A DNA stretch of 64,000 bases from an uncultured Bacteroidota bacterium. Its GTDB lineage: Bacteria > Bacteroidota > Rhodothermia > Balneolales > HLUCCA01. The notes beneath the pieces are model-generated. The model saw only the letters and a list, made by a program, of their open reading frames with translations. It was not told where the DNA came from and ran no database searches. The position numbers and the translations under genes are program-made. Each line of letters begins with the position of its first letter. Position 1 is the stretch's first letter. The stretch spans positions 18,260-82,259 of the forward strand of contig CAMTWZ010000007.1 in the NCBI GenBank assembly GCA_947085565.1. The letters run 5' to 3'. Below are positions 6,019 to 29,315 of this stretch, one piece after another.

Positions 6019-6068
6019 GGCGAGATAGAAGTGTAAATTTGAGGCTAAAAGTAAGGGATTTTCGCCTC

Positions 6069-9319: not shown

Positions 9320-9339
9320 GCATCCCTTATTCCTATTTC

Positions 9340-13501: not shown

Positions 13502-13639
13502 ACGCAAATATTTGGCTTTTTTCATTAGAATTTGAGCGTTTCGTATTGACTGATGGCCTTCTTATAGGTAGCTTCAACGAAACTGAGAGCTTAGCTCCAG
13601 TAAATCTCTTTCTAACTCAACCTAAATCTGGAGTGAATC

Positions 13640-13813
13640 ATGAGTCGTTTTTCCGAAATCAAAGCACTGGTCGACCAACTAGACGGTGATCTGGACAAGT
13701 TCTATAACAAGGCGAACAAAACCGCAGGAACCCGCGCCCGCAAAGCCCTTCAAGACCTGAAAAAAATCGCACAAGAAGTGCGCTTGGACATCCAGAACCG
13801 CAAAAACGGATAA
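13640..13813 (+). CDS. Small basic 'histone H1'-type (Hc1-like) DNA-binding protein, 57 aa
   Basis: Not in the ORF track (<60 aa). ATG at 13640, TAA at 13811-13813. Translation: MSRFSEIKALVDQLDGDLDKFYNKANKTAGTRARKALQDLKKIAQEVRLDIQNRKNG. The NK(A/T)AGTRARKA core matches my recollection of the short 'histone H1' proteins annotated in Bacteroidota. A strong terminator follows. Confidence 0.75.
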   Translation: MSRFSEIKALVDQLDGDLDKFYNKANKTAGTRARKALQDLKKIAQEVRLDIQNRKNG

Positions 13814-13851
13814 TCTGATTTCTGACAAGTCTTTGTCTTGCTAATAAAAAA

Positions 13852-13878
13852 AGTCCGCCCACAATGGCGGACTTTTTT
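13852..13878 (+). terminator. Rho-independent terminator
   Basis: The agtccgcc / ggcggact stem has a 5-nt loop (13852-13872) and is followed by tttttt (13873-13878). An A-run precedes it. Confidence 0.85.
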
Positions 13879-13898
13879 GTTTAACCCATTCTCACAGA

Positions 13899-15137
13899 GT
13901 GCCAGCCACTTCCTACAAAGTATTCACCGACCCCATCCACGGGTTCGTGCAGGTTCCCAAAGGCCTGATCTTGCGCCTGGTCGACCATCCCTATGTTCAA
14001 CGCTTACGGCGCATCCGCCAGCTCGGGCTTGGTTATCTCGTCTTTCCCGGTAGCGAACACTCCCGTTTTTCGCATGCTTTGGGTGCCTTAGGCCTGATGC
14101 AGCGCACGTTGGCCAGCCTTAAAGAGAAGAACACCACAATATCCAACGATGAGATGGAAGGTGCCATGGCCGCCATCCTTCTGCATGACATCGGTCACGG
14201 ACCCTTTTCCCATACACTCGAAAACACCTTCATCACCGATTTCCATCATGAGCAGATGACCTTGGCGCTCATGAAGAAACTCAATGAGGAATTCAACGGC
14301 GCGCTCAGCACGGCCATCGACATTTTCACGGGCCAGCATCCCAAACCCTTCCTTCATCAGCTCATCTCCTCCCAACTCGATATCGACCGCTTGGATTACA
14401 TCAAGCGCGACAGCATGTTCACCGGCGTGCTTGAGGGCGGAATCGGCATCGAACGCATCATCAAGACGATGAGGGTTCGCAAAGGCCAGATGGTGATCGA
14501 ACGCAAAGGCATCTACGCCATCGAAAACTACATTACCGCACGCCGGTTGATGTACATGCAAGTCTATCAGCATAAGACCGTTCTGAGTGCGGATAAACTG
14601 CTGAGAGCCATCCTGTTGCGCGTGGCGGATCTGATCAAGGCCGGAAAGAGTCCGTTCATCCCCTCACCCGCGCTGGATTGGTTCCTGAAAAACACCCCAT
14701 CCGGCAAGAAAGGACTCAGCGACCAAGTGATCAGCACCTATCAGATGCTCGATGACAATGATATTCTAATGGGAATCAAATATTGGTGCCATGAGAAAGA
14801 TCGGATTTTGTCTGACTTATGCCGCCGTTTTCTGGAGCGTCGTTTCTTCCGCACCACCTTCCTGAAACAGCCGATGAGCGAAACCCAGTGGGAGCAACTG
14901 CAAGCCGAAACACAAGCCATCACCGGTGGAAAATCTTCGATAATCGGCTACTATCTGTTCCATGACAACCTTTACAACGAAGCCTACCGCTATGAGAACG
15001 ACAGCATCTGGGTGCTGGATGAACCCGATACGGTCGTCGAGTTTTCCAAAGCGGCGGATACGAAAAGCATCCAGGCCCTCACCCAACCCGTGGTGAAGCC
15101 CTATATCGTCCATCTCAAGGAAGTGAAGGTTTTTTAA
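13899..15137 (+). CDS. HD-domain phosphohydrolase (dGTPase/SAMHD1-like dNTP triphosphohydrolase family)
   Basis: 412 aa. Motifs: DPIHG, HSRFSHALG, LLHDIGHGPFSH and DRLDYIKRD. Confidence 0.85.
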   Translation: MPATSYKVFTDPIHGFVQVPKGLILRLVDHPYVQRLRRIRQLGLGYLVFPGSEHSRFSHALGALGLMQRTLASLKEKNTTISNDEMEGAMAAILLHDIGHGPFSHTLENTFITDFHHEQMTLALMKKLNEEFNGALSTAIDIFTGQHPKPFLHQLISSQLDIDRLDYIKRDSMFTGVLEGGIGIERIIKTMRVRKGQMVIERKGIYAIENYITARRLMYMQVYQHKTVLSADKLLRAILLRVADLIKAGKSPFIPSPALDWFLKNTPSGKKGLSDQVISTYQMLDDNDILMGIKYWCHEKDRILSDLCRRFLERRFFRTTFLKQPMSETQWEQLQAETQAITGGKSSIIGYYLFHDNLYNEAYRYENDSIWVLDEPDTVVEFSKAADTKSIQALTQPVVKPYIVHLKEVKVF

Positions 15138-15172: not shown

Positions 15173-16408
15173 ATGAAATATCGTCGCTTTCTCATTCTCC
15201 TTCTGCTCACGCTCTTTTTCGGAGCGTTGGGATGGTGGCTCACCTTGTCCGAATCCTCGCCGTTCAACCGGCTTTTGTCCGATTCGCACACGGCACAGGT
15301 CCAGTATCTGGTAGGTGTCGTGGAACGTCAAACGGCCGGATCCGAAGAATGGATCCGAGTGAGCGTTGGCGACACCCTCAATCCGAAAGACCACATCCGC
15401 ACATCTTCAAACTCCAACGTGTTGCTCACGTTTTCGGGCGAAGCCAGTCTTTTCCTAGGATCCGACAGTGAAGTCGAGTTCGCCAGCGGGCTCTACCTGT
15501 GGAACGGAGAACTCAGTTACAAACGGATGAAAGGCTCCAAAACCGTTCCATCCGACATCAATACCGCAGACGGAACCCTTTCCATGGGTTCGAGACTTCC
15601 CGGCGACATCGAGGAGGTCTGGGTAACCCGCTCCGTCAGAGGCACTCATGTGGCCATCGATCATGGTTCCGGTGCTTGGAGCACCGCCAACGGCGAAAGC
15701 AAGGCGCTCATGCAGGGCGATTATCTGCAATTCGAATCGGTTTCGGTGATGCGCCAAGATCCGATCATCCGCTCTCCCGAAGCCGGGGAGGTGTTCACCC
15801 ACGGTTATCTTTCGCGCGGATTCAACGTGGTTTGGACCCCCGATTCCTCCGCCACCTCCTATCGCATCGAAATCACCAAAATCGATGAAGGTGCCTCATA
15901 CATGACTTGGAACGACACCGAAACCAATGCGTTTCGTGTTCGAAATCTGGATGCGGGAATCTATTCGGTGCGTGTATGGTCGTTCGGTGCCGACGGCCGC
16001 CGCAGCCAATGGTCGCAAACCCAAGGCTTCTCCATCAGCGGTCGGTATTTCGGCTCACTTAACGCTCCGCTGGCGTGGGAAGAGCCCATCCGGTTCGATG
16101 TGGCTCCATATCGTGAAAACCTCCTCCTCGGCGGATGGTTGCGCAAAGACCTGATCGATACCCACGAAATCGTCTTCTACGCCTTGACCGACGCGTGGTG
16201 GATCCAACCCTCCGTAGAAGAGTACAGGATTTCCGCCAATGAGGACGGATATTTCGAATCGTTTTGCAATTCGGCGAGATCCGTCTATGTTATGGTCGTC
16301 GCCAAAGGTGAAGGGGATTTTCCTGAAACCGTGCCCAGAAGCCGTTACCTTCCTTTTCCCGACGGCAAATACATTCTCTACCATATCGAAAAAACCCTTC
16401 GTCCATGA
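15173..16408 (+). CDS. TM-anchored FecR-like + FN3-like domain protein
   Basis: 411 aa with an N-terminal TM helix (FLILLLLTLFFGALGWWL). The segment VGVVERQTAGSEEWIRVSVGDTLNPKDHIRTSSNSNVLLTFSGEASLFLGSDSEVEF fits the FecR-domain pattern. The middle segment (VVWTPDSSATSYRIEITK…GIYSVRVWSF) looks FN3-like. The C-terminal third is unassigned. Confidence 0.6.
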   Translation: MKYRRFLILLLLTLFFGALGWWLTLSESSPFNRLLSDSHTAQVQYLVGVVERQTAGSEEWIRVSVGDTLNPKDHIRTSSNSNVLLTFSGEASLFLGSDSEVEFASGLYLWNGELSYKRMKGSKTVPSDINTADGTLSMGSRLPGDIEEVWVTRSVRGTHVAIDHGSGAWSTANGESKALMQGDYLQFESVSVMRQDPIIRSPEAGEVFTHGYLSRGFNVVWTPDSSATSYRIEITKIDEGASYMTWNDTETNAFRVRNLDAGIYSVRVWSFGADGRRSQWSQTQGFSISGRYFGSLNAPLAWEEPIRFDVAPYRENLLLGGWLRKDLIDTHEIVFYALTDAWWIQPSVEEYRISANEDGYFESFCNSARSVYVMVVAKGEGDFPETVPRSRYLPFPDGKYILYHIEKTLRP

Positions 16409-17748
16409 AGCTTCCCGGTCTGCTGCTGTTGATGTTCGTGATCTTGCCTCTCACCGCTTCAGCTCAGACCGACTCCGTGAGAGTGTATGTGGAACGGCAG
16501 GATTTCCAGTCTGCCATCCGCCTGTTGGACTCCGTTCTGACGCAAGACCCCGAAAATCCTGAATTGCGCTACCGATTGGCGCAAGTGACGGCATGGTCCG
16601 GCGCCTATCCCTCGGCGATCGCCATCCTTCGGAAACTGGTCGCTGACATCCCCTCCTATTCGGAGGCGGTCGTTCTTCTGGCAAGGGTCCATTCCTGGAA
16701 CGCCGATTACAATCAAGCCGAAACGCTCTATCGGAGCATCGTGAAAGAAGATCCCGCCTATGGCGATGCGCAAGCCGGATTGGCGCAATTGGCCTTCTAT
16801 AAAGGTGCGCTTAACGAAGCATACGTTCTTTCAAACTCTGTACTGGTCGATTTTCCCGAAAATGAAGTTGCCCTTCAAGTGAGAAACAGTATCCAAAAAG
16901 GGATGCGACCCGAATCGGAAACCCAATGGATGATGCCTTGGGATTCGGAAGGCAATCGCGGATGGGTCGTCTCCGAATCCGTGGGATTCGCACTCAGACC
17001 CGGACTTGGCGCCTTTGTGAAACTCCGTGCGGTGGACAATGGTGCCTCCGTATTCAGCTGGACGGGCGGCGCACGCTGGAGCCGATACTCCGCCTCGCTC
17101 GGAGCCAACGCCTACCGTCAGACGCGACGCATCGATCTGGAATTCTCCGGCTCCGCAAGGTTCGCAAATTCAGTGATATTCGCCAACCGCTACGGGCTCT
17201 TCGACAGCCAAGCCCTGATCGACAGAAACGTCAGCATCACTGAAATCGGGGGTATCCACCTGTACCGACGCGCCACACAAACCCTTACGTCCACATCCAC
17301 CTTCGCCGCGTACAGCACCGGCAACCAGCGCATCGCCGTAAGCCTCGACTACGACAAGTCGTTCGTGCTGGGCGAGGTCACCTTCCGTCCGGGTGCTGTG
17401 ACCTCGGTGTCCTCATTTCTGAAAAACGATCCCACAGGCGGATTTTTCGCACCCAAATGGTGGAACGTGTCTGCATTGAAAGCCGCCACGAACTATCGCC
17501 CGGCCACATCGCGCTTCCACGCATCACTCACCGCACAACTCGGTGCCCAAACCATCGCCCCGTACGGCGCCGAGCGCATCGGACCCGACCTGAGTTACTC
17601 TTTCGACCTCAGCGCCGGTTATACGCCTAGCCAAGACCTCCAAATCGTAGCAGGCTATCTGTACAGCACTCTGTTGAACACCACATCGCAGGCGAACGAT
17701 TCGTATTGGGCCCAGCGGTTGGGCATCAGGGTATTCATCCGATTCTAA
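16405..17748 (+). CDS. TPR-repeat + outer-membrane beta-barrel protein (YaiO/PgaA-like architecture)
   Basis: 447 aa with a signal peptide (LLLLMFVILPLTASAQ). It has about 150 aa of TPR-like helices, then about 270 aa of alternating-hydrophobic strands ending in …VFIRF (a C-terminal Phe, typical of OMPs). ATGA overlap with the upstream gene. Confidence 0.6.
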   Translation: MKLPGLLLLMFVILPLTASAQTDSVRVYVERQDFQSAIRLLDSVLTQDPENPELRYRLAQVTAWSGAYPSAIAILRKLVADIPSYSEAVVLLARVHSWNADYNQAETLYRSIVKEDPAYGDAQAGLAQLAFYKGALNEAYVLSNSVLVDFPENEVALQVRNSIQKGMRPESETQWMMPWDSEGNRGWVVSESVGFALRPGLGAFVKLRAVDNGASVFSWTGGARWSRYSASLGANAYRQTRRIDLEFSGSARFANSVIFANRYGLFDSQALIDRNVSITEIGGIHLYRRATQTLTSTSTFAAYSTGNQRIAVSLDYDKSFVLGEVTFRPGAVTSVSSFLKNDPTGGFFAPKWWNVSALKAATNYRPATSRFHASLTAQLGAQTIAPYGAERIGPDLSYSFDLSAGYTPSQDLQIVAGYLYSTLLNTTSQANDSYWAQRLGIRVFIRF

Positions 17749-19925
17749 TCGGCCGAAACCCAGCCGGTGTACGCATCCGGAAAATCATCGTCACCGAATC
17801 CGTACCATCCACGGATTCGCCAGGTATGGTAGGGTTTGGCATATTTCCCCAATCCCACCAGAAAGACGTTCTTTCCCGAAGCGGTGACATGCGGAACCAC
17901 GTTCGCGATGGATTTTAAGGTATCCAGATCATTCATAAACCGTCGAGCTTCCGCCTCCGTCCTGAATGTGCCGATCACCAGATGGTGGTACCCTTGGGTA
18001 AGGATCGAATCGGGTTGTACATGGCTGGTAGGCTTCATCACAAGATCCGCCGCCGGTGGTTTCGTTCCACCGGGCGCGTCGTACCTATCCGCGTAAGCGT
18101 CAGGGTAATCGCCAGGGCGCAACGCGTAGGCTCTCCTCATTGTGGCGGTGGTCAGCGGTGTGTCCGATCGTCCCACTCTCACGCGGAAGACGAGATAGCC
18201 GGAAGGAAGCGCATCCTTGACCACTTCGGCGCTGTCTCTAAGTGCTGCAGGCAATGATTCAAGGAAGCGGTTGGCATTGGATTCGGAAAGGAACGTGCCC
18301 AGCACCAGGTGATAATGGCCTTTGGAAAGCAACGATTCGAATGTGGGATCGGGTGATGCCGGGTCAGGCGATGGATCGAGCGTGGCATAGCGGATGGGGG
18401 CTTCAGGCCAGATCACAGCCCGGTACTTGTACATCACTCCGGATCCGATGAACAGAAACAGAAACAGGAAGCCGAACGGGAATTTCCGTGGTTCTTTCGG
18501 GGCGACCGGCTTCGCGGCGGCCTGTTTTGTAGCGGTTCCCAATCCTTTCCGGGTCATCTCACCCCAGGATTTGTTTCCCTTCAGGAAATCCACCAACCCC
18601 ATCAACCGCCACCACGAGTGCATCTGCCGGTAACCGAAATTCTCCAGCAAGGCATAGAAGAACATGATGAAGATGTGCCTTACCTGCGGATATCTGCGAT
18701 AGGTGAACTCTTCGCACAGTACGGAGGAAACTGACAAGACCATGCCTAAGAGGATGGATGCGGCCAGAAAAACGAGGGCGAATTCGATGTTGAGCGCTCC
18801 GAAAACCCAGGTGATGAACAGGAAGAAATAACCACCGACTTCGACGATGGGGCCGAGCATCTCAATGAAAAAGAAGAAGGGCATGGCGAAGAAACCGAGT
18901 CGGCCATAGGTCGGGTTGAACATCATTTTGCGATGGCGCCAAAGAGTGTCGGCCAAACCACGCTGCCAACGGTTCCGCTGCCGGGCAAGAACGGCTTTCG
19001 TCTCGGGGACTTCCGTCCAGCACACCGGTTCAGGGATGAATCGAACCCGGTAGGGAATCTTGTTCTCGCGGTAATACCGATGAAGCCGGACCACGAGCTC
19101 CATATCTTCGCCAACGGTGTCGTGCAGATAACCGCCCACTTTCAAGACCGCTTTGCGGTCGAACAGGCCGAAAGCGCCAGAAATGATGAGCAGACTGTCG
19201 AGATAATCCCATCCTACGCGTCCGAATAGAAATGCCCGGAGATACTCCACGACTTGGATCCGCGCGAGGAAGGATTTCGGCACGCGAATCTCTTTGAGTT
19301 CGTTGTTCTCGAAGATGCAATCGTTGGCGATGCGGACGATTCCACCGACCGCGATAGTGCTCTCATCTTCGATGAAGCAACGGATCATGCTTTGAAGCAC
19401 CAGCGGTTCAAGCACCGAATCAGCGTCTATCGAACAGATCAGATCGTTTCGGGAGACGTTGATTCCGACATTGAGCGCATCCGCTTTGCGTCCGTTTTCC
19501 TTGTCGACTACCAATAACTCGGGGTACAGATCCGATTTGTAGATCGCTTTGATCGGTTTGTGCGAAAGGATCAGAGGCACATACCGATCCACTTTCTTGA
19601 GCTTGAAATTCTCGATGAGGACATCCATCGTCCGGTCTTTGCTTCCATCGTTGATCACGATCACTTCATAGTTCGGAAACTGAAGCTGGAGAAGTGAACG
19701 TACCGAAGCCACCACCGTGCTTTCCTCGTTGTAGGCGGGCGCCAGGATGCTGATGGGATAGTAGAGATTGGAGCTGAACAGCCCGGAAAGGGAAAAGACA
19801 TCTTTCTGCTTGATCTGTTTTCGAATATGGAAAAAAGAAATCGTGATCAGCACCATGTACACCAGATTGATGGTGAGGAAATAGCTGATCACCGCATACT
19901 CGATGAACGTGAGGAAGATGTTCAT
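17745..19925 (-). CDS. Processive family-2 glycosyltransferase (PgaC/IcaA/cellulose-synthase-like) fused to two C-terminal SPOR-like domains
   Basis: 726 aa. GT2 motifs: INDGSKD, SIDADS (DxD), GEDMEL and RQRNRWQRG (QxxRW). TM helices lie at the N-terminus and at aa ~340-440, with an extra TM at aa ~482-498. After that come two ~70-aa repeats (HYHLVLGTFLSESNANRFL…FRVRVG and YHHLVIGTFRTEAEARRFM…FLVGLG) with the SPOR beta-alpha-beta-beta pattern. Confidence 0.85.
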   Translation of the reverse strand: MNIFLTFIEYAVISYFLTINLVYMVLITISFFHIRKQIKQKDVFSLSGLFSSNLYYPISILAPAYNEESTVVASVRSLLQLQFPNYEVIVINDGSKDRTMDVLIENFKLKKVDRYVPLILSHKPIKAIYKSDLYPELLVVDKENGRKADALNVGINVSRNDLICSIDADSVLEPLVLQSMIRCFIEDESTIAVGGIVRIANDCIFENNELKEIRVPKSFLARIQVVEYLRAFLFGRVGWDYLDSLLIISGAFGLFDRKAVLKVGGYLHDTVGEDMELVVRLHRYYRENKIPYRVRFIPEPVCWTEVPETKAVLARQRNRWQRGLADTLWRHRKMMFNPTYGRLGFFAMPFFFFIEMLGPIVEVGGYFFLFITWVFGALNIEFALVFLAASILLGMVLSVSSVLCEEFTYRRYPQVRHIFIMFFYALLENFGYRQMHSWWRLMGLVDFLKGNKSWGEMTRKGLGTATKQAAAKPVAPKEPRKFPFGFLFLFLFIGSGVMYKYRAVIWPEAPIRYATLDPSPDPASPDPTFESLLSKGHYHLVLGTFLSESNANRFLESLPAALRDSAEVVKDALPSGYLVFRVRVGRSDTPLTTATMRRAYALRPGDYPDAYADRYDAPGGTKPPAADLVMKPTSHVQPDSILTQGYHHLVIGTFRTEAEARRFMNDLDTLKSIANVVPHVTASGKNVFLVGLGKYAKPYHTWRIRGWYGFGDDDFPDAYTGWVSAD

Positions 19926-21034
19926 ACCACCTCCATCTCGTCACGGATCCGTCCGATGAGTTCCTGCAGCTCTTCGGTCTGCATCGCCAATTCGTCAAGG
20001 TTCGTCTGCCCTTCCGGGCCCATTGCCACCATGGCGAAAATCGCACGGATGCGCACATCCAACACTGGATCTTGGGCCAACTGCTTCAGATAGGGTAGGA
20101 AGCGGACATCATTGAACGCTTCGAAAGCCTGAGCGGTGCTTTTGCGGATTCGAGGATTGGCGTGACCTACGGTGGTATCGATCATCCAATCGCCGGCCGG
20201 ACCGAACTGAAACTGACCCATGGAATAAATCAGGGCATCGATCACCTCGTCATCCTCGGATCGGAATCCGGATTCGAGCAGGTCATAAAGCACCATGAGC
20301 AATTGCCCGTACCCGATGTCGGTGATGGCTCTGATCACCACGCCAATGTTATGAGCGGGGATCGAGGTATCCACCAAAAGCTTGGAGATGCACTCGGATT
20401 CCTCCTCGAACTGATCCAAAGCGAGGGTATGGAACCGATACATGATTTCGATCAGGGCAAGCCTTGATATCCGTGGATTGTGGACCACCTGGGTGAGCGC
20501 TTCGAACCGGATGCGGACCTCTTTGGAGGAAAGGAGTCCTGATGCCGCCGCATGAGCCAGCAACGGCGACGGCGATTTGACATACTGCCGGAGAAGCCGT
20601 AGCTCCTCATCATTGATGTCGATCACTTTCGAATAATACAGGCAAGCATCAATTCTCTGCTGATTCGCCGAAGATTTCAGCTTGGCGAAATAATGAGCCC
20701 GAATTCCCGGAAGGAAGAGCAAGGATTGGATCTTGGGCACTTCCTGACCGTCGAGTTGTGTCATCATGTCGGCAAGGATTTCCACAAACAGATCCATGTC
20801 GAATTCCGCTTTCACGGATTTTTCCATCCGTTCAATGGACTCATTCTCTCCGGTGATGTACTCGATGATGTATGTGTAGAACTGGTTTCGGCGTTTCGTC
20901 CTTTGTTTCTCCACATATCTGGAGGCATATCGGACGATCACCGAAGTGAAGAGCAGATACACCGACAGGATGGCAAGAAGCGAAGCAACGATATAGACGA
21001 ACCGGATGGCGTCGAAATCGTCACCGGAAACCAT
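19922..21034 (-). CDS. Single-TM HEAT/armadillo-like repeat protein
   Basis: 370 aa with an N-terminal TM helix (FVYIVASLLAILSVYLLFTSVIV). The rest is all-helical with repeated ~30-40-aa units (…NPRIRKSTAQAFEAFND…, …DPVLDVRIRAIFAMVAMG…) typical of HEAT repeats. 4-nt overlap with the GT2 start and 1-nt overlap with the receiver stop. Confidence 0.65.
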   Translation of the reverse strand: MVSGDDFDAIRFVYIVASLLAILSVYLLFTSVIVRYASRYVEKQRTKRRNQFYTYIIEYITGENESIERMEKSVKAEFDMDLFVEILADMMTQLDGQEVPKIQSLLFLPGIRAHYFAKLKSSANQQRIDACLYYSKVIDINDEELRLLRQYVKSPSPLLAHAAASGLLSSKEVRIRFEALTQVVHNPRISRLALIEIMYRFHTLALDQFEEESECISKLLVDTSIPAHNIGVVIRAITDIGYGQLLMVLYDLLESGFRSEDDEVIDALIYSMGQFQFGPAGDWMIDTTVGHANPRIRKSTAQAFEAFNDVRFLPYLKQLAQDPVLDVRIRAIFAMVAMGPEGQTNLDELAMQTEELQELIGRIRDEMEVV

Positions 21035-21411
21035 TATTTCTCCAAAGCCCTGGTGATGCGCATCATCAGCTCTCCGAGCTTGAAAGGTTTAGAGATATAT
21101 TCGAGAACTCCCATGGAGAATCCTCTTTGCAGGTCCTCTTCCCGGTTTTTCGAAGTGAGCATGATCACTTTGAGGTGGCGTGTTTTCTCATCGTCGCGAA
21201 TGGCCTGCAACACCTCGAAACCGCCGATGCCGGGAAGCATCACGTCGAGCAAAATCAGATCCGGCATGAGTTCGAACGCCTTGGCCAAACCTTCCACTCC
21301 GTTGGCCGCAATCACCACATCCATATTCTCATGATTGAGTTTGAACTCAACAAGTCTGGAAATTCCGGGGTTGTCTTCGATTAAAAGGACTTTAGGTCGT
21401 GTTGATGTCAT
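21034..21411 (-). CDS. Stand-alone response-regulator receiver (CheY-like)
   Basis: 125 aa. Motifs KVLLIEDN, LILLDVMLPG (phospho-Asp) and SKPF. There is no output domain. Confidence 0.9.
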   Translation of the reverse strand: MTSTRPKVLLIEDNPGISRLVEFKLNHENMDVVIAANGVEGLAKAFELMPDLILLDVMLPGIGGFEVLQAIRDDEKTRHLKVIMLTSKNREEDLQRGFSMGVLEYISKPFKLGELMMRITRALEK

Positions 21412-22539
21412 TCAGGACGTATGCTTCAAAGGAAGGCGTATCGTGAACGTGGTTCCGATACGTTCCATGCTTTCCACAGTGATGGTGCCATTATGTAGCT
21501 CAAGATATCGCTTGACCAGTGGCATACCAAGCCCTGTACCCTTTTCACCCTTTGTTCCTCGTCGTTGCGCACCGAATTTCTCAAACAATTTGGGAAGAAG
21601 GTCTTTAGGTATTCCCATCCCTGAATCGATGATCTGGATCTGAAGTTGACTTGAATCGACCGGAGATGAGCCGATCTCCACTTTCACCACTCCACCATCC
21701 GATGTGAATTTGATGGCGTTCGAAATCAGATTTCCAATGATTTGCGAGAATTTGGTGATGTCCACTTCCGCCTGGATTCCTTCTATTCTCTCGATCATGA
21801 CCAATTTAACACCTTTCGATTTGGCCGTTGCGGTATGCAATTGCATCACATCATGGCAATACGCTCCGATATCGGTCTGTGTGAAGGTCAATTGAAGCGA
21901 ATTGGCCTCGATCAAAGCGATGTCCAACAGATCGTTGACCAGTAGCAGGAGACGCTCCGCACTGGATTCGATCAGCGCGAGCATATCGGCGAGTTCCTTC
22001 TCATCGGCCGGGCCGTCGGTACGCAAAAAGTTCGAAATTCCGATGATGCCGCCGATCGGGTTTCTCATATCGTGGGAGATGATTCCCAAAACCTCGTCTT
22101 TCTCCTTGTTGAGCTTTTCGAGGCGGATCACGTTCTGTTGACGCTCCAATTCTAGATAACGCATCCGAAGATGCAGCTCGATCCGCGCCAAGACCTCCAG
22201 TTGCTGAAAAGGTTTGGTGATGTAATCCACTCCGCCCGACTCCAACGCCTTCACCTTGGCGTCCACATCGCTAAGAGCGCTCAGGAAAATGATAGGGATA
22301 TCGTCATAAGCGGATTCCTTCCGGATCTCACGGCAGGTTTCGAAACCATCCATTCCGGGCATCATCACATCCAAAAGGATCAGATCCGGTGTTTTGCGAG
22401 AAAGAAGTGCGATGGCATCTTCGCCATTGAATGCCGCCAACACCTTGTATTGCTTGCCACGCAACATCTGCGTGAGAACCTGGACATTCTGCTGGGTGTC
22501 GTCTACGACGAGAATGGTAGGTACGCTTGGTTCAGACAT
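21412..22539 (-). CDS. Receiver-histidine kinase (REC-HisKA-HATPase_c)
   Basis: 375 aa. The N-terminal receiver has ILVVDD…LILLDVMMPGMDG. The H-box is ISHDMRNP. The C-terminal ATPase has the G-box GTGLGMPLV. Confidence 0.9.
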   Translation of the reverse strand: MSEPSVPTILVVDDTQQNVQVLTQMLRGKQYKVLAAFNGEDAIALLSRKTPDLILLDVMMPGMDGFETCREIRKESAYDDIPIIFLSALSDVDAKVKALESGGVDYITKPFQQLEVLARIELHLRMRYLELERQQNVIRLEKLNKEKDEVLGIISHDMRNPIGGIIGISNFLRTDGPADEKELADMLALIESSAERLLLLVNDLLDIALIEANSLQLTFTQTDIGAYCHDVMQLHTATAKSKGVKLVMIERIEGIQAEVDITKFSQIIGNLISNAIKFTSDGGVVKVEIGSSPVDSSQLQIQIIDSGMGIPKDLLPKLFEKFGAQRRGTKGEKGTGLGMPLVKRYLELHNGTITVESMERIGTTFTIRLPLKHTS

Positions 22540-24940
22540 CCTGATACCGTTTTGCCACTTGGGTTAGTTGAAAATAATCGGCTCTCTGCAGAATGGAGGT
22601 GAACAGTTCCGCCACGGATTCGAACCCGGCGATAGGTTCGGCACTGCGCATGATCTCCAAGATCGCGTCAAAATCCTGCTCCTCCATCGCTGCATTGATG
22701 CGAAGTTGGGACTCTTTCGGAAAAGTACGCAAATACGCCACGATATCGTCAACACCCACATCTTTGGAATCAGGTTCGGCAGCCATTTCTTCGTAAGTGA
22801 ATTCCACCCCTATCAGTTTACCGATGAGCTCGAGCAGATCCGGCTCATAAAACGGTTTGCGCACATATTCGGTGAATCCCTGGCGCTTGAGTTCCACATT
22901 TTTACCTTCGAAGCCGCTGGCGGTGAGTGCGATGATGGGGACCGTTTTGCCTGTCGGCAATTCCCGGATCTTCAGCATGGCACCGATTCCGTCCAGTACG
23001 GGCATGATGATATCCATCAACACCAAATCGAAGGGTTTGGCGGCGAACGCATCCACGGCGACCTGGCCGTTTTCGGCTTCTTCCACCTCGAAGCCGATCG
23101 CTTCCAGCATCACACGGGCCACTTCGCGGTTCGGAGGAACATCATCCACAACCAGAATTCGAGGATTCTTATTCTTACTGATACCGGTGATCTGCTTAGG
23201 ATGCTGGCGGCTTCCGGAAAACACCGCTGTTGACGCTCTGAGGGGGATTTCCACCCGGAAATTCGACCCTTGCCCGACCACGCTCGACACCGAAATCCTG
23301 CCTCCCATCAATTCGCTGAGTTTCCGGCTGATCGCCAACCCCAAGCCCGTGCCTTCCTGATATTTACCTTTCACTTGCTGGAACGGTGAGAAAATCGCCT
23401 CCAACGAATCGGCCGGAATTCCAGCGCCGGTGTCGATCACATCAAACACAAGGTCGTAGGTGCCTGAATACTGCAATTTGAGCGTCACACTTCCTGTGGA
23501 TGTGAACTTGATGGCGTTTCCAATCAGATTGATCAGGATCTGACGGAGTTTGTTCGGATCGCCGACCACCGCGCCCGGCAGAGGATCTTGGAAATCCGTC
23601 TTCAGCGCGATTCCTTTCTCCTTGCATTTCAGATTGAACATTGACTGAAGGTCCTGAAGCAATTCCGGAAGATTGAAATCCACCTCGATAAGATCCATCT
23701 TGCCGGATTCGATCTTCGAGATATCCAGGATGTCGTTGATCATGTTCAGAAGGTGATGCCCGCTTCGATACATGGTTCCGACATATTGCTGCTCCTGATC
23801 GACCAGGTTCTTGCTTTTCTGAAGGATCTGGGCATAACCGAGAACCGCGTTCAACGGAGTGCGGAGCTCGTGGGAGATCCGTGCCAGGAACGAGCTCTTC
23901 GCTTCACTGGCCTCTATGGCGCGTTTGCGCGCCTCAACCAATTCATCGATCCGGTAGGCCACCAAAATGAAGCGGTTTCCGCCATCGTCGTCGGGCATGG
24001 AATGGATCATCCAGCTCAGAGAGTGTTCGGTTCCGTCGCGCGTGATGAGGGTGTCTTCGGTTTTGACAACATCCAGTCCGTTTCTGGCATCTTTGAACCC
24101 GTCTTTGAAGGCCAGATACAATTCAGGGTAAACCTCGGGGAAAGGCAAGCCGGATTTGAGTTCCCCATCGGGTTGGAAATCATCGCCGAAGCGGCGGCTG
24201 AACGTCTGGATATTCAGATAATCACCTAACAGCATCATCGGTATGGGTGCGTTTCGGATCAGCGATTCCAACTGAGCGCGTTCCACACGCAGCGAGGCTT
24301 CCACTTTCTTGCGCGCCTTGATATCCCTGAACAGGATGAAACTGGTAACCAGGATCAGGACGATGGCGATCACGGTTTCGGCAAGTATGATCATCGACGA
24401 ACGCCGGAAAGAGGCATCGGCCAGAAGAAGCCGTTCATTCAGATAATCGTTCTCCAGCTTTTGCATGTAGATCACCACTTCCCGCACATCCGACATGGCC
24501 TCGGCGCCGGACCCCGAATTGGTCATTTCCGCGGCTTGAGCGAACCCTTCCCGACTTCTGACATTGATCGTCGATTCCATGATCTGGAACTTGGCGTACA
24601 CACGGATCCTCAATGAATCCATATACGCCCTGGCTTGCTCATCGCGGATCAGAGAATAAAAGGATACCAGTTGAGCGTCGATTTTCAGTTTCGCTCTCTG
24701 GTAAGGCGCCAGATAGGATGAATCTCCGGTGATTACGAAACCGCGCTCGGACGTTTCCATGTCGGTGACGAGGATCAGAAGATCGTTCAGCTCGGAAACC
24801 AGCTGCTGGGTACGGGTCACCTCATCCAAATGCTCGCCGATGGCGTTATTGCCTCGTATACTTGCCCATGCTATAAGTGCAAGCACCAGGACCGCGACCG
24901 CGAATCCGACGTAAACCCGCATTTCGACTTTTTCTCTCAT
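22532..24940 (-). CDS. Hybrid sensor histidine kinase: CHASE3-TM-PAS-HisKA-HATPase_c-REC + ~100-aa helical tail
   Basis: 802 aa. The N-terminal TM is followed by a CHASE3-like periplasmic segment (…METSERGFVITGDSSYLAPY…) and a second TM. The H-box is ISHELRTPLN and the G-box GTGLGLAISRKL. The receiver has ILVVDD…LVLMDIIMPVLDG. ATGA overlap with the folA stop. Confidence 0.9.
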   Translation of the reverse strand: MREKVEMRVYVGFAVAVLVLALIAWASIRGNNAIGEHLDEVTRTQQLVSELNDLLILVTDMETSERGFVITGDSSYLAPYQRAKLKIDAQLVSFYSLIRDEQARAYMDSLRIRVYAKFQIMESTINVRSREGFAQAAEMTNSGSGAEAMSDVREVVIYMQKLENDYLNERLLLADASFRRSSMIILAETVIAIVLILVTSFILFRDIKARKKVEASLRVERAQLESLIRNAPIPMMLLGDYLNIQTFSRRFGDDFQPDGELKSGLPFPEVYPELYLAFKDGFKDARNGLDVVKTEDTLITRDGTEHSLSWMIHSMPDDDGGNRFILVAYRIDELVEARKRAIEASEAKSSFLARISHELRTPLNAVLGYAQILQKSKNLVDQEQQYVGTMYRSGHHLLNMINDILDISKIESGKMDLIEVDFNLPELLQDLQSMFNLKCKEKGIALKTDFQDPLPGAVVGDPNKLRQILINLIGNAIKFTSTGSVTLKLQYSGTYDLVFDVIDTGAGIPADSLEAIFSPFQQVKGKYQEGTGLGLAISRKLSELMGGRISVSSVVGQGSNFRVEIPLRASTAVFSGSRQHPKQITGISKNKNPRILVVDDVPPNREVARVMLEAIGFEVEEAENGQVAVDAFAAKPFDLVLMDIIMPVLDGIGAMLKIRELPTGKTVPIIALTASGFEGKNVELKRQGFTEYVRKPFYEPDLLELIGKLIGVEFTYEEMAAEPDSKDVGVDDIVAYLRTFPKESQLRINAAMEEQDFDAILEIMRSAEPIAGFESVAELFTSILQRADYFQLTQVAKRYQDV

Positions 24941-25416
24941 GATGACGAATGCAAACGATGATAGACCACGAACGACATTCCGTCTGCCGCTCTTCGCGAC
25001 ACTTCCTTCCAGACCTTTCCGATACCGTGTCTGTATTCAGGAAAATATACATCACCTTCATGAATCCCAACGACTTCCGTGACAATCATCTCGTCGATGT
25101 AGGGCATGATGGATTCGTATAATTTCGATCCGCCGATCACAAACACTTTCTCGTATTTCGAAAGATAAGTCATGGCTTCCGGAATAGACTCAAAACTTTT
25201 GACGTTTTCCCATTTTTTGGATGAGATCACGAAATTCTCCCTTCCGGGCAGCGGTTTCTCGCCCAATTCCTCATACACGCCTCTACCCATGAGGATGGGA
25301 TGTCCCATGGTGGTTTGCTTGAAATGACGCATGTCTTCGGGCTGTTTCCAGGGTAGCCCACCCTTGTTTCCGATCACCAACGCCTCATCGTGCGCGACGA
25401 TCAGAACCCATCTCAT
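24937..25416 (-). CDS. folA: Dihydrofolate reductase
   Basis: 159 aa. The pattern (IVAHDEALVIGNKGGLPW…, …VIGGSKLYE…) is typical of DHFR. It lies immediately downstream of thyA with a 4-nt overlap. Confidence 0.9.
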   Translation of the reverse strand: MRWVLIVAHDEALVIGNKGGLPWKQPEDMRHFKQTTMGHPILMGRGVYEELGEKPLPGRENFVISSKKWENVKSFESIPEAMTYLSKYEKVFVIGGSKLYESIMPYIDEMIVTEVVGIHEGDVYFPEYRHGIGKVWKEVSRRAADGMSFVVYHRLHSSS

Positions 25417-26228
25417 ACCGCGACCTCGAATTTGATTCCAGGGTCGGGGTCATAACCGGTCAATACGAAATCGTCGAATCCGAGCTCATCCAGAGGCTTT
25501 TTCGCCACAGTGAGTGCGGGCAAAGGCTTGGGCGTTCTCTTGAGCTGCTCTTTGAGTCCATCCACATGGTTCACATAGATGTGCGCATCCACGATGGTAT
25601 GGGCGAATTCACCCGGCTCCAAACCCACTTCCTGCGCGATGGCGATGGTGAGTGCCGAATAACAGGCCAGATTGAACGGGATGCCCAAGGCGATGTCTCC
25701 CGAACGTTGCGTGAGGTGGCAATTCAGGCGCCCCTTGCTCACATTGAACACAAAAAGAATATGGCAAGGCGGAAGCGCCATGTGCTTGAGCATTCCCGGA
25801 TGCCAGGCGCTCACCACGATCCGACGACTGTTCGGATTGGTCTTCAATGTGTGCACAGCCTCTTTGATCTGATCGACCGTGGTCACCTCTCCGCTCGGAT
25901 CCGTGTAGGGATCACCGACCGGAAACTTGCGCCACATCACCGGATAAATCGGCCCGACGTGGCCATCTTCACGCGCCCACGCATCCCAGATGTGGCAATT
26001 GTTCTCGTCGCGAAGCCAACGGATGTGGTCTTCGCCCCTGAGATACCATAAAAGCTCAAGAATGACCGATCTGAAATGCACTTTTTTCGTGGTCAGCAAC
26101 GGGAATCCTTCCGCCAAATCCACCTTGTAGAATTCCGCGAAGGAGGAAATGGTGTCGATTCCGGTCCGGTTATGCTTAAGTTCCCCGTTTTCAAGAACCC
26201 GGGCCACCAAGTCGTGATAGGCTTTCAT
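25413..26228 (-). CDS. thyA: Thymidylate synthase (ThyA type)
   Basis: Trimmed to MKAYHDLVARVLENG at 26228 (ATGA overlap with the ilvE stop). Motifs: FPLLTTKKVHF, LPPCH and QRSGDIALGIPFN. Confidence 0.95.
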   Translation of the reverse strand: MKAYHDLVARVLENGELKHNRTGIDTISSFAEFYKVDLAEGFPLLTTKKVHFRSVILELLWYLRGEDHIRWLRDENNCHIWDAWAREDGHVGPIYPVMWRKFPVGDPYTDPSGEVTTVDQIKEAVHTLKTNPNSRRIVVSAWHPGMLKHMALPPCHILFVFNVSKGRLNCHLTQRSGDIALGIPFNLACYSALTIAIAQEVGLEPGEFAHTIVDAHIYVNHVDGLKEQLKRTPKPLPALTVAKKPLDELGFDDFVLTGYDPDPGIKFEVAV

Positions 26229-29311: not shown

Positions 29312-29315
29312 TCGA

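What the first reader, a model, noticed from the sequence alone, without database searches (positions are those of the whole stretch)
15173..24940. Candidate undescribed synthase-dependent exopolysaccharide system: phosphorelay -> HEAT adaptor -> GT2::SPOR synthase, converging on a FecR-like/TPR-barrel export pair
Seen: five minus-strand genes run from 24940 to 17745 with overlapping or abutting junctions. They are a CHASE3-PAS hybrid kinase, a REC-kinase, a stand-alone receiver, a single-TM HEAT-repeat protein, and a multi-TM processive GT2 (DADS, GEDMEL, QRNRW) with two SPOR-like domains. Two plus-strand genes converge on them so tightly that the stop codons overlap. These are a TM-anchored FecR-like/FN3-like protein and a TPR + beta-barrel protein ending in Phe, and they are themselves coupled by an ATGA overlap.

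Established: synthase-dependent EPS machines (PgaABCD, BcsABC, NfrAB, Pel) pair a GT2 synthase with a TPR/beta-barrel porin. They are usually gated by a c-di-GMP receptor (PilZ, the PgaCD interface, MshEN, degenerate GGDEF).

Inference: the parts list here is synthase + porin-like + periplasmic protein. I see no c-di-GMP module, no PgaB-like deacetylase and no BcsB-like subunit. Instead there is a dedicated multi-kinase phosphorelay and a HEAT-repeat membrane protein. I do not recall a characterised system with this architecture.
Basis: partly seen in the sequence, partly recalled or inferred. Interest (0 to 1): 0.8.

Follow-up and report, generated by a model that had tools for sequence, protein, structure and literature searches.

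The report
Receiver–HEAT–GT2 polysaccharide synthase cassette
This is a real gene cluster for making and exporting a polysaccharide; its conserved core (a phosphorylatable receiver, a membrane-anchored HEAT-repeat protein and a processive GT2 synthase) occurs unnamed in hundreds of bacterial species and some archaea, and may switch the synthase by phosphorylation rather than the usual c-di-GMP.

Summary
Most domain calls hold: CHASE3 hybrid kinase, REC-kinase, stand-alone REC, single-TM HEAT protein, multi-TM GT2 with two SPOR-like domains, and a TPR protein with a signal peptide.

Three calls do not hold or are weak:
- "FecR-like" has no support.
- PAS is sub-threshold.
- The barrel of the 447-aa protein is supported only indirectly.

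The main result is conservation. HEAT lies directly upstream of this GT2 in 73-75 of 81 loci from at least 14 bacterial phyla, and also in haloarchaea. A stand-alone, fully phosphorylatable REC lies upstream in 57 of 70 loci. A TPR+beta-barrel porin is frequent in diderms and absent in the archaeal and the one monoderm (Halanaerobiales) locus examined. The kinases and the 411-aa protein are specific to the window's lineage.

The modelled GT2 resembles hyaluronan, cellulose and chitin synthases. It falls far below the PgaC and BcsA family cutoffs.

Related cassettes in Gemmatimonadota and Marinimicrobia carry REC-GGDEF-REC proteins. "No c-di-GMP" is therefore true of this window but not of the family.

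No curated model, specific RefSeq product name or paper was found for the cassette.

Verdict: a new, widespread variant of synthase-dependent polysaccharide systems. Its function and switch mechanism are inferred, not shown.

The parts
22532..24940 (-). Hybrid sensor kinase, 802 aa: TM - CHASE3 - TM - PAS-like linker - HisKA - HATPase_c - REC; no Hpt detected. An input module specific to this lineage.
   Evidence: Pfam CHASE3 3.9e-25, HisKA 4.8e-21, HATPase_c 2.1e-28, REC 1.1e-22. PAS_4 is sub-threshold only. The gene is conserved in L029 and L091; L094 and L095 have a multi-PAS hybrid kinase in its place. Its start overlaps the folA stop.
21412..22539 (-). REC-HisKA-HATPase_c kinase, 375 aa. 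Probably a second-tier kinase controlled through its own receiver.
   Evidence: Pfam REC 2.5e-31, HisKA 5.9e-14, HATPase_c 2e-28. Conserved at this position in L029, L091, L094 and L095. Absent next to the triad in Rhodohalobacter and Gracilimonas.
21034..21411 (-). Stand-alone receiver (REC), 125 aa. A conserved core component and the proposed phospho-switch.
   Evidence: Pfam REC 2.5e-25. A stand-alone REC lies upstream on the same strand in 57 of 70 loci. Across 56 cassette RECs: D56 56/56, K108 56/56, T/S86 56/56, D13 55/56, Y105 48/56. Also present in the haloarchaeal and Mesorhizobium versions.
19922..21034 (-). HEAT-repeat protein, 370 aa, with one N-terminal TM; the HEAT solenoid is predicted to be cytoplasmic. 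The constant partner of the GT2.
   Evidence: Pfam HEAT_2 4.4e-08 and HEAT 1.3e-07. TM at residues 15-33 followed by a basic stretch (sequence). Found directly upstream of the GT2 in 73/81 loci by HMM and 75/81 by BLAST clustering. The TM anchor is conserved in 71/73. Full-length homology at 24-30% identity to the Rhodohalobacter and Gracilimonas proteins.
18510..19925 (-). GT2 synthase core (residues 1-472): N-terminal TM helix, GT-A domain, C-terminal helical TM bundle. A processive synthase-translocase fold.
   Evidence: Pfam Glycos_transf_2 8.4e-21, Glyco_trans_2_3 and Chitin_synth_2. Invariant D, DxD, ED and QRNRW motifs. AlphaFold pLDDT 80. Foldseek top hits are hyaluronan synthases (E 2.6e-15, TM 0.62), BcsA and chitin synthases. 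About 50% identity across phyla.
17745..18509 (-). C-terminal extension of the GT2 (residues 473-726): disordered basic linker, an extra TM helix (484-505), then two SPOR-like domains (about 537-615 and 645-724) predicted to be periplasmic.
   Evidence: Pfam SPOR 28 bits, cutoff 21, at residues 644-696. Internal repeat of 40% identity, E 2e-19. AlphaFold models two beta-alpha-beta-beta domains at pLDDT about 90. The extension is found only in close relatives; most family members are 468-550 aa.
16405..17748 (+). Secreted TPR protein, 447 aa, with a C-terminal domain of about 280 aa that is probably an outer-membrane beta-barrel. The candidate export porin.
   Evidence: Signal peptide, G/S/T/aromatic-rich C-terminal half, and a C-terminal ...VFIRF. 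TPR_19 1.5e-20. The TPR module is homologous to that of TPR+YaiO porins (hhalign 98-99.7%). The C-terminal domain has only 15 homolog clusters in 1.84 billion representatives. In that family 5/14 members hit OMP_b-brl (26-27 bits, cutoff 28.7) and one hits PgaA_barrel (25.8 bits, cutoff 27). Every member examined lies convergent with the GT2. The AlphaFold single-sequence model was uninformative.
15173..16408 (+). Membrane-anchored protein, 411 aa, of unknown fold; only its middle domain is weakly FN3/Ig-like. A lineage-specific accessory, translationally coupled to the porin.
   Evidence: N-terminal TM at residues 7-25. No Pfam family at E<=0.01 and no FecR hit at E<=10. FN3/Ig-like signals at residues 205-290. 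Homologs only in L029, L091 and L095, absent in L094. ATGA overlap with the porin gene.

Best explanation
The cluster encodes a synthase-dependent polysaccharide secretion system built round a conserved three-gene core.

Shown by fold, motifs and topology prediction: a processive, membrane-integrated GT2 polymerises a sugar from a nucleotide-sugar donor and threads the chain through its own transmembrane channel.

Shown by conservation, with the role inferred: a single-TM protein with a cytoplasmic HEAT solenoid is the synthase's constant partner.

Inferred: a stand-alone receiver, once phosphorylated, docks on the HEAT protein and/or the GT2 and switches synthesis on or off after translation. 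It would fill the role that c-di-GMP receptors fill in the Bcs, Pga, Pel and Alg systems.

In this lineage the phosphate comes from a two-tier kinase pair. A CHASE3 hybrid kinase senses a periplasmic signal and acts on a REC-kinase, which in turn phosphorylates the stand-alone receiver. This order is inferred.

The polymer then crosses the periplasm and outer membrane through the convergently encoded TPR + beta-barrel protein, helped by the 411-aa membrane-anchored protein. This is also inferred.

The two periplasmic SPOR-like domains on the synthase would tether it to peptidoglycan, perhaps at division sites. This feature is specific to the lineage.

The closest named enzyme family is PgaC/IcaA, so a beta-linked HexNAc-type polymer is the best guess, but the product is unknown.
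For: GT2 as a synthase:
- Catalytic motifs are invariant.
- The AlphaFold model has pLDDT 80.
- The best structural matches are hyaluronan synthase, BcsA and chitin synthase.
- The nearest NCBIfam model is PgaC_IcaA (E 2.6e-41).

Module conservation:
- HEAT is adjacent to the GT2 in 73-75 of 81 loci across at least 14 phyla.
- A stand-alone REC lies upstream in 57 of 70 loci.
- The triad also occurs in Mesorhizobium, Emticicia and a haloarchaeon.
- Divergence is correlated among the three genes (Mantel r 0.83-0.90).

Topology:
- The HEAT TM anchor is conserved in 71/73 homologs, and its positive-inside flank puts the solenoid in the cytoplasm with the GT domain and the REC.

Receiver competence:
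- The phospho-acceptor residues are essentially invariant.
- Input modules vary between lineages (CHASE3 HK, multi-PAS HK, GAF HK, Hpt-containing hybrids, REC-GGDEF-REC) while REC-HEAT-GT2 stays constant. That is the pattern expected of an output module.

Export:
- A TPR+beta-barrel gene accompanies the cassette in diderms: 27 loci with TPR+YaiO (YaiO E 2e-40), plus Mesorhizobium and Emticicia.
- It is absent in the haloarchaeal locus and in the one monoderm (Halanaerobiales) locus seen.
- In the window's lineage, every member of the rare porin family that was examined lies convergent with the GT2.

Precedents:
- A single-domain response regulator directly activates an EPS enzyme in Myxococcus (PMC12802240).
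- A HEAT_PBS protein interacts with CheY in Halobacterium (PMC2666748).
Against: - No experiment or complex prediction links REC, HEAT and GT2 physically.
- The polymer is unknown.
- The barrel of the 447-aa protein is not confirmed structurally (pLDDT 35) and is not detectably YaiO.
- Bacteroides finegoldii and Deinococcus radiophilus carry HEAT-GT2 with no adjacent REC, so the receiver is not obligatory.
- Many cousins encode GGDEF proteins beside the cassette, so c-di-GMP may be the real or an additional effector in the family.
- The Mantel correlations are partly explained by shared species phylogeny.
- Tight gene junctions in this genome also join unrelated housekeeping genes.
Confidence: 0.6

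Rival explanations
1. The system is controlled by c-di-GMP after all. HEAT-GT2, or their interface, would be the c-di-GMP receptor, as in PgaC-PgaD. The stand-alone REC would be what remains of an ancestral REC-GGDEF-REC protein and would act only upstream, as a phosphate shuttle or sink or as a regulator of a diguanylate cyclase encoded elsewhere, rather than on the synthase.
For: REC-GGDEF-REC or Hpt-REC-GGDEF-REC genes lie directly upstream of HEAT-GT2 in Gemmatimonadota, Acidobacteria, Actinobacteria and Marinimicrobia (15 loci in cluster 9). Some keep an intact GGEEF. Others are degenerate, like the receptor-type GGDEF domains of PelD. The C-terminal REC of these proteins usually scores best against the window's REC.
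Against: The 64-kb window has no GGDEF-like ORF. Pfam finds no PilZ, MshEN or GGDEF domain in the GT2 or HEAT proteins. Haloarchaea carry the triad, and GGDEF proteins are almost absent from archaea (PMC10086821). The stand-alone REC is kept in Marinimicrobia even beside a GGDEF protein.
Confidence: 0.2
2. The GT2 does not make a secreted matrix polysaccharide. It would make a cell-envelope or septum-associated glycan, or short oligosaccharides of the NodC type, and the convergent TPR/barrel pair would be unrelated or serve another envelope function.
For: In this lineage the synthase carries two SPOR-like domains; from established knowledge, SPOR domains bind septal peptidoglycan. The window's barrel is not a detectable YaiO or PgaA family member. 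Many loci show no porin within 6 kb: 17 of the 38 loci with full flanks. NodC and chitin-synthase models also match the GT2.
Against: TPR+barrel genes recur inside the operon, between REC and HEAT or directly after the GT2, in many phyla. Accessory LtaS/OpgB-like periplasmic transferases with TPR domains co-occur, as BcsG does with cellulose synthase. The SPOR extension is limited to a small clade. The fold matches channel-forming synthases.
Confidence: 0.12
3. The two kinases and the 411-aa/447-aa pair are simply neighbours in a compact genome and have no functional tie to the REC-HEAT-GT2 triad.
For: Gene overlaps continue into folA, thyA, rnc and fabF. In this lineage the whole block, housekeeping flanks included, is syntenic, as vertical inheritance alone would give. 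Rhodohalobacter and Gracilimonas have the triad with no adjacent kinases.
Against: The kinase position is kept while its sensor domain is exchanged (CHASE3 versus multi-PAS). These are the only two-component genes in the 64-kb window. Unrelated kinases flank the triad in other phyla and in archaea. The porin family is extremely rare and was found only beside this GT2. A porin at this position is the rule in other diderm versions.
Confidence: 0.08

Closest known systems
PgaABCD / IcaADBC poly-beta-1,6-GlcNAc system
   Same: Both have a membrane GT2 synthase with D, DxD, ED and QxxRW motifs, a small membrane partner encoded next to it (PgaD there, the HEAT protein here), and a TPR + beta-barrel exporter (PgaA). 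PgaC_IcaA is the best-scoring named model for the GT2 (E 2.6e-41). One member of the window's porin family almost reaches the PgaA_barrel cutoff.
   Different: The GT2 scores 142 bits against an equivalog cutoff of 422, and the porin scores 34 against 367. No PgaB/IcaB-type deacetylase was found in any neighbourhood. The partner is a 370-aa HEAT solenoid, not the small two-TM PgaD. A receiver gene is part of the operon.
Bcs cellulose secretion systems (BcsA-BcsB-BcsC, BcsG)
   Same: Both have a processive GT2 synthase-translocase fold (Foldseek hits 4p00, 9b8v, 9fmz) and a TPR+barrel exporter. In cousin loci an accessory periplasmic alkaline-phosphatase-superfamily transferase parallels BcsG.
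   Different: The GT2 has no PilZ domain and there is no BcsB. CelA scores 40 bits against a cutoff of 699. The accessory transferase best matches phosphoglycerol transferase/LtaS rather than BcsG, and it is absent from the window.
Pel system (PelD-PelE-PelF-PelG, PelB)
   Same: An inner-membrane alpha-solenoid scaffold (PelE, predicted TPR-like) and a degenerate-GGDEF receptor (PelD) resemble the HEAT protein and the degenerate REC-GGDEF-REC proteins of the Gemmatimonadota cousins. PelB is a TPR + barrel exporter.
   Different: Pel uses a soluble GT4 (PelF) and a separate transporter (PelG). Here a GT2 both polymerises and translocates. This comparison rests on established knowledge of Pel and was not tested with these tools.
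EpsW-EpsZ of Myxococcus xanthus (single-domain response regulator activating an EPS enzyme)
   Same: A phosphorylated stand-alone receiver controls polysaccharide synthesis after translation by binding a membrane enzyme (PMC12802240).
   Different: EpsW targets a phosphoglycosyl transferase of a Wzx/Wzy pathway, not a processive GT2 synthase. No HEAT adaptor is involved, and epsW is not part of a conserved three-gene cassette with its target of the kind seen here.
E. coli yaiS-yaiP-yaiX-yaiO cluster and TPR+YaiO porins
   Same: A membrane GT2 (YaiP, 27% identity over 339 residues, E 7e-12) is encoded with a YaiO barrel. Most versions of the cassette outside the window's lineage use TPR+YaiO porins.
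   Different: The E. coli cluster is itself uncharacterised, and it has no HEAT or REC gene. The window's own barrel is not detectably YaiO.
Halobacterium HEAT_PBS protein OE2401F of the archaeal chemotaxis switch
   Same: A HEAT-repeat protein serves as interaction partner of a CheY-type receiver and is needed for output (PMC2666748).
   Different: It is soluble, part of a motility pathway and has no glycosyltransferase partner. Homology to the window's HEAT protein was not tested.

Membership tests
Processive membrane GT2 synthases (BcsA/HAS/Chs/PgaC class) | GT-A domain with D, DxD, (T)ED and QxxRW motifs | tested here: met
   D93, D167/D169, E273-D274 and Q316-R-N-R-W320 are invariant in 67 homologs. 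Pfam GT2 families match.
Processive membrane GT2 synthases (BcsA/HAS/Chs/PgaC class) | Transmembrane helical bundle that forms a channel next to the active site | tested here: met
   AlphaFold model at pLDDT 80 with TM helices 2-44 and 338-448. Foldseek top hits are 8smp (HAS, E 2.6e-15, TM 0.62), BcsA and chitin synthases.
PgaABCD PNAG system | Synthase reaches the PgaC_IcaA equivalog score (TIGR03937, 422 bits) | tested here: not met
   141.9 bits. The Mesorhizobium ortholog scores 145.8 bits.
PgaABCD PNAG system | PgaB/IcaB-type polysaccharide deacetylase in the operon | tested here: not met
   None in the window cluster. None among the recurrent neighbour families in 81 loci.
PgaABCD PNAG system | PgaA-type TPR + 16-strand barrel porin | tested here: inconclusive
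   PGA_TPR_OMP scores 34 bits against a cutoff of 367, on the TPR region only. PgaA_barrel scores 25.8 bits against a cutoff of 27 in one family member, P0143. No confident structure was obtained.
Bcs cellulose synthase | C-terminal PilZ domain on the synthase, plus BcsB | tested here: not met
   No PilZ hit and no BcsB-like gene. CelA scores 40 bits against a cutoff of 699.
NfrAB-type system | MshEN c-di-GMP-binding domain on the GT2 | tested here: not met
   Pfam finds only GT2 families and SPOR in the 726-aa protein.
YaiO-family outer-membrane barrel (PF19413 / TIGR04390) | C-terminal domain matches the YaiO barrel model | tested here: not met
   No Pfam or NCBIfam YaiO hit. Barrel-only hhalign gives 0.3-4.6% probability. 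Cassette porins of other phyla do match: E 2e-40 and 170 bits.
TPR+barrel porins associated with this cassette | N-terminal TPR module homologous to that of the cassette's TPR+YaiO porins | tested here: met
   hhalign gives 98.2% for the single sequence and 99.7% for the family profile. The 'AR.YaW.G.Y' repeat signature is shared.
Outer-membrane beta-barrel protein (generic) | Signal peptide, C-terminal aromatic beta-signal, barrel fold | tested here: inconclusive
   A signal peptide and a C-terminal ...VFIRF are present. OMP_b-brl is hit by 5 of 14 family members, just below the cutoff. The fold was not resolved.
SPOR domain (PF05036) | Pfam gathering score and a beta-alpha-beta-beta fold | tested here: met
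   Domain 2 scores 28 bits against a cutoff of 21. Domain 1 is a 40%-identical repeat of it. Both are modelled at pLDDT about 90. Peptidoglycan binding was not tested.
Two-component receiver (CheY-like), phosphorylatable | Acidic pocket, phospho-acceptor Asp, and the Thr/Ser, Tyr and Lys switch residues | tested here: met
   D13, D56, T86, Y105 and K108 are present in the window REC and conserved in 48-56 of 56 cassette RECs.
Multistep His-Asp-His-Asp phosphorelay | An Hpt domain or protein between the hybrid kinase and the terminal receiver | tested here: not met
   No Hpt hit in any of the three window proteins, nor in the kinase's C-terminal tail. Hpt is present in other versions of the cassette.
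FecR family (PF04773) | Match to the FecR model in the 411-aa protein | tested here: not met
   No FecR hit at E<=10 in the window protein or in three homologs.

The most novel reading that the evidence does not exclude
REC-HEAT-GT2 is an ancient, horizontally mobile, self-contained module found in Bacteria and Archaea. In it a phosphorylated receiver, acting through a membrane-anchored HEAT adaptor, directly gates a processive polysaccharide synthase. That would be a phosphorylation-gated counterpart to c-di-GMP gating, and a previously unnamed family of synthase-dependent polysaccharide systems with its own porin (TPR+YaiO) and its own modification enzyme (an LtaS/OpgB-like transferase with TPR).
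Probability: 0.4. Interest if true: 0.8.

Novelty: new variant of a known kind. Interest (0 to 1): 0.7.

Why it matters
The textbook set of synthase-dependent exopolysaccharide machines is small (cellulose, PNAG, alginate, Pel, and more recently Nfr), and nearly all are gated by c-di-GMP.

This cassette differs in three ways:
- It is present in at least 564 species spanning at least 14 phyla, and in haloarchaea.
- It has no curated family model and only generic RefSeq product names.
- Its constant companions are a phosphorylatable receiver and a HEAT-repeat membrane protein.

If the receiver gates the synthase directly, two-component phosphorylation becomes a second general way to switch processive synthases after translation. 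It would also explain how organisms with little or no c-di-GMP signalling, archaea among them, control matrix production.

Culturable carriers exist (Gracilimonas, Rhodohalobacter, Brevundimonas, Mesorhizobium ciceri, Haloarcula), so the question can be tested directly.

The polymer may itself be new. It may also carry a phospho-substituent in lineages that have the LtaS/OpgB-like accessory.

Tried and rejected
1. The HEAT alignment (A2) could not seed a genome scan because it was too divergent to back-translate. The GT2 alignment was used instead.
2. The last large protein search was run with the 411-aa and 447-aa proteins concatenated. Generic word matches flooded the candidate list and nothing scored. 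That search was wasted, so no permitted alignment was available for structure prediction of those two proteins.
The single-sequence model of the 447-aa protein was uninformative (pLDDT 35).
4. The window's barrel was tested as a YaiO barrel three ways: single sequence against profile, two-sequence profile, and 14-sequence profile restricted to the barrel. All were negative.
5. The 411-aa protein was tested as a member of the recurrent unannotated 408-aa family (cluster 15) seen in Ignavibacteria, Marinimicrobia and Chitinophagaceae. It is not related (hhalign 0.7%).
6. 'FecR-like' was rejected for the 411-aa protein.
7. Sequence searches of the GT2 against PDB chains matched only the first 60 residues or so of the GT-A domain. 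A fold search was needed.
8. Eight literature searches found no description of the cassette. The terms covered HEAT repeat, GT2, response regulator, YaiO, PgaC, synthase-dependent and receiver domain. The held library is incomplete, so this is absence of evidence only.
9. The Lipocone paper and Römling's essay were checked and do not cover the cassette.

Full report
**Observation**

The seven ORFs are at the stated coordinates.
- Plus strand: 15173-16408 (411 aa) and 16405-17748 (447 aa).
- Minus strand: 17745-19925 (726 aa), 19922-21034 (370 aa), 21034-21411 (125 aa), 21412-22539 (375 aa) and 22532-24940 (802 aa).

Reading the junctions directly confirms the ATGA overlaps between the 411-aa gene and the porin gene and between HEAT and GT2. 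REC and HEAT overlap by 1 nt (TAATG). REC-HK and REC abut (TGAATG). The two kinase genes overlap by 8 nt. The convergent stop codons share bases (CTAA).

One caveat applies. The folA stop also overlaps the kinase start by ATGA, and thyA, a class IV aminotransferase, rnc and fabF follow upstream without gaps. Tight coupling is therefore a property of this genome and is not evidence of function.

**Domains**

Pfam and NCBIfam confirm the following:
- CHASE3-HisKA-HATPase_c-REC in the 802-aa protein
- REC-HisKA-HATPase_c in the 375-aa protein
- a stand-alone REC
- HEAT repeats behind a single N-terminal TM helix
- a GT2 with SPOR
- TPR repeats in the 447-aa protein

The GT2 motifs D93, D167xD169, E273-D274 and Q316RNRW320 are invariant in 67 homologs.

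An AlphaFold model built on that alignment has pLDDT 80. It shows an N-terminal TM helix, a GT-A domain and a helical bundle (338-448). A disordered basic linker and an extra TM helix (484-505) follow, then two beta-alpha-beta-beta domains (537-615 and 645-724) at pLDDT about 90. The second of these passes the SPOR gathering score. The first is a 40%-identical repeat of it. The extra TM helix should place both in the periplasm.

- PAS is sub-threshold.
- No Hpt is present, so a classical phosphorelay is not shown.
- 'FecR-like' has no support at E<=10 in four homologs.

Only the middle of the 411-aa protein gives weak FN3/Ig-like signals.

**What the GT2 is**

Sequence searches of the PDB match only the start of the GT-A domain. 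The model's best structural matches are all membrane-integrated processive synthase-translocases:
- class I hyaluronan synthases (8smp, E 2.6e-15, TM 0.62)
- BcsA
- chitin synthases

The nearest curated family is PgaC/IcaA, at 142 bits against a cutoff of 422. CelA and NodC score far lower. The protein is a synthase of the known class but not a member of any characterised family.

**Conservation: the main result**

The GT2 core (about 470 aa) is highly conserved. It is 60-65% identical across Balneolaceae. A scan of one genome per species found at least 564 species encoding a relative. Copies about 50% identical occur in these groups:
- Marinimicrobia, KSB1, Latescibacteria, Lentisphaeria
- Gemmatimonadota, Ignavibacteria, other Bacteroidota, Acidobacteria
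- Alpha- and Gammaproteobacteria
- Actinobacteria and Halanaerobiales

I profiled 81 non-redundant loci with HMMs and all-against-all clustering.
- A HEAT-repeat gene lies directly upstream of the GT2 in 73 loci by HMM and 75 by BLAST clustering. Four of the loci without it are contigs truncated at the GT2.
- A small stand-alone REC lies upstream on the same strand in 57 of 70 loci. It is adjacent in 37 and one gene away in 18.

The HEAT proteins are true full-length homologs despite 24-30% identity. They keep the N-terminal TM anchor in 71 of 73 cases. The cassette RECs keep the phospho-acceptor Asp and Lys in 56/56, Thr/Ser in 56/56 and the acidic Asp in 55/56. Divergence of the three genes is tightly correlated (Mantel r 0.83-0.90), although shared phylogeny contributes to that figure.

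Annotated plasmids extend the range:

| Organism | Gene order |
|---|---|
| Mesorhizobium ciceri | HK - RR - RR - 'YaiO family OM beta-barrel' - HEAT - GT2 - Hpt |
| Emticicia | RR - HEAT-like - GT2 - hypothetical - YaiO - LTA-synthase family |
| Deinococcus | TPR - HEAT - GT2 |
| Bacteroides finegoldii | HEAT - GT2 |
| Haloarcula halophila (archaeon) | RR - HEAT - GT2 - GAF kinase, no porin |

All RefSeq product names are generic. NCBIfam release 20 has no model for the HEAT partner or for this GT2 family.

**Accessories**

In diderm versions a TPR + YaiO barrel gene (YaiO E 2e-40; TIGR04390 170 bits) sits between REC and HEAT or after the GT2. It occurs in 27 loci, with two further divergent clusters.

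Eight loci add an 830-aa membrane protein with a sulfatase-superfamily domain and C-terminal TPRs. Its best match is phosphoglycerol transferase I, the LtaS/OpgB type. It may decorate the polymer as BcsG does for cellulose.

Input modules vary widely:
- CHASE3 or multi-PAS hybrid kinases in the window's lineage
- giant hybrid kinases with Hpt in other lineages
- a GAF kinase in the archaeon

In Gemmatimonadota, Acidobacteria, Actinobacteria and Marinimicrobia the input is a REC-GGDEF-REC or Hpt-REC-GGDEF-REC protein. The GGDEF domains are degenerate in most Gemmatimonadota. They keep an intact GGEEF in Marinimicrobia, a Rubrobacteraceae MAG and one Gemmatimonadales MAG.

It is not correct for the family.

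**The window's own export pair**

The 447-aa protein has a cleavable signal peptide, a G/S/T/aromatic-rich C-terminal half and a C-terminal ...VFIRF. Its TPR module is homologous to that of the TPR+YaiO porins (98-99.7%). Its C-terminal 280 residues are not detectably YaiO.

That domain is rare, with 15 clusters among 1.84 billion representatives. Within the family, 5 of 14 members hit OMP_b-brl and one hits PgaA_barrel, all just below the cutoffs. Every member whose context I could read lies convergent with a long GT2 followed by HEAT, REC, REC-HK and a large hybrid kinase. The chromosomal setting is the same each time, with an HD protein on one side and folA-thyA on the other.

The 411-aa protein has homologs only in this lineage and is missing in L094. 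A single-sequence AlphaFold model of the porin failed (pLDDT 35). The barrel is therefore likely but not proven.

**Mechanism**

Supported by fold, motifs and topology prediction:
- the synthase fold and catalytic motifs
- the obligate genomic pairing of HEAT with the GT2
- a competent receiver
- the predicted cytoplasmic location of the HEAT solenoid, judged from the TM plus its positive-inside flank

Inferred:
- REC~P binds HEAT and/or the GT domain and gates synthesis.
- The kinases feed REC.
- The TPR/barrel protein exports the chain.
- The SPOR domains tether the synthase to peptidoglycan.

Two published precedents make the REC-HEAT step plausible. EpsW~P directly activates an EPS phosphoglycosyl transferase in Myxococcus (PMC12802240). 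A HEAT_PBS protein interacts with CheY and is needed for output in Halobacterium (PMC2666748).

The main rival is that c-di-GMP is the real effector and the stand-alone REC is a remnant of REC-GGDEF-REC. Against this stand the archaeal triad and the absence of any c-di-GMP domain here.

**Comparison and novelty**

The system works like the Pga, Bcs and Pel machines: a synthase, an inner-membrane partner and a TPR/barrel exporter. It fails the membership tests for each of them. Its distinguishing feature is a conserved REC + HEAT pair in the position where those systems have a c-di-GMP receptor.

E. coli's own yaiS-yaiP-yaiX-yaiO cluster pairs a distant GT2 (27% identity, E 7e-12) with a YaiO barrel, and it is likewise uncharacterised.

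Eight full-text literature searches found no description of the cassette. The library is incomplete, so this cannot prove that none exists.

I rate it a new variant of a known kind: widespread, unnamed and directly testable in culturable carriers.

Noticed in passing
L043, L055, L062, L066, L068, L070, L074 (Gemmatimonadota and others), gene directly upstream of HEAT: REC-GGDEF-REC proteins whose GGDEF domain lacks any GG[DE]EF motif. They may be receptor or scaffold-type degenerate GGDEFs tied to the HEAT-GT2 pair. Marinimicrobia (L040, L044, L047, L053), L050 and L067 keep an intact GGEEF.
   Followed up: partly
L086 (Haloarcula halophila plasmid) 4427-8555: A haloarchaeon carries response regulator - HEAT - GT2 (44% identical to the window's GT2) - GAF kinase, with no porin. 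Salinirubellus and Halosolutus plasmids also carry the GT2.
   Followed up: partly
L040:12669-13898, L044:11404-12609, L048:7569-8792, L063:7498-8751, L069:7465-8736, L071:7628-8827 and others (alignment A4): A conserved protein of about 408 aa with an N-terminal TM recurs inside the cassette in Ignavibacteria, Marinimicrobia and Chitinophagaceae. It has 54 invariant columns (motif AGDFxDN) but no Pfam, NCBIfam or PDB sequence match.
   Followed up: partly
L002:12921-15395, L012:7215-9695, L089:8676-10643 and five other loci: A membrane sulfatase-superfamily protein of about 830 aa with C-terminal TPRs lies next to the cassette's porin. RefSeq calls it 'LTA synthase family', and its best NCBIfam match is phosphoglycerol transferase I. 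This suggests phospho-decoration of the polymer, as BcsG does for cellulose. It is absent from the window.
   Followed up: partly
L098 (E. coli K-12 MG1655 380069-384616): yaiO is the last gene of an uncharacterised cluster: yaiS (putative deacetylase), yaiP (membrane GT2, 27% identical to the window's GT2 core), yaiX (acyltransferase split by IS2), then yaiO. This looks like a cryptic GT2 + YaiO-barrel glycan system.
   Followed up: partly
window 24937-29350, minus strand: folA, thyA, a class IV aminotransferase, rnc and fabF run into the kinase gene with overlapping or abutting junctions. The folA-thyA flank is syntenic in relatives L091 and L095; L091, L094 and L095 all share the plus-strand flank.
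   Followed up: partly
window 9136-12186, plus strand: A 1016-aa fusion of glycoside hydrolase family 3 (N- and C-terminal domains) with a serine beta-lactamase/transpeptidase-like domain. The fusion is conserved in L091 and L095 but is a separate beta-lactamase-family gene in L094.
   Followed up: no
window about 13500-13900 (57-aa ORF seen in L003:7677-7850, L091:5244-5417): A small Hc1-type (PF07432) histone-like protein gene is conserved just upstream of the HD-domain gene in all relatives examined.
   Followed up: no
GT2 homologs P0016-P0034, L094:10535-12940, L095:10414-13014: The C-terminal extension of the synthase varies greatly between close lineages (468, about 540, 620-690 and 770-866 aa). 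Only some versions score as SPOR, so the periplasmic tail appears to be a fast-evolving add-on.
   Followed up: no
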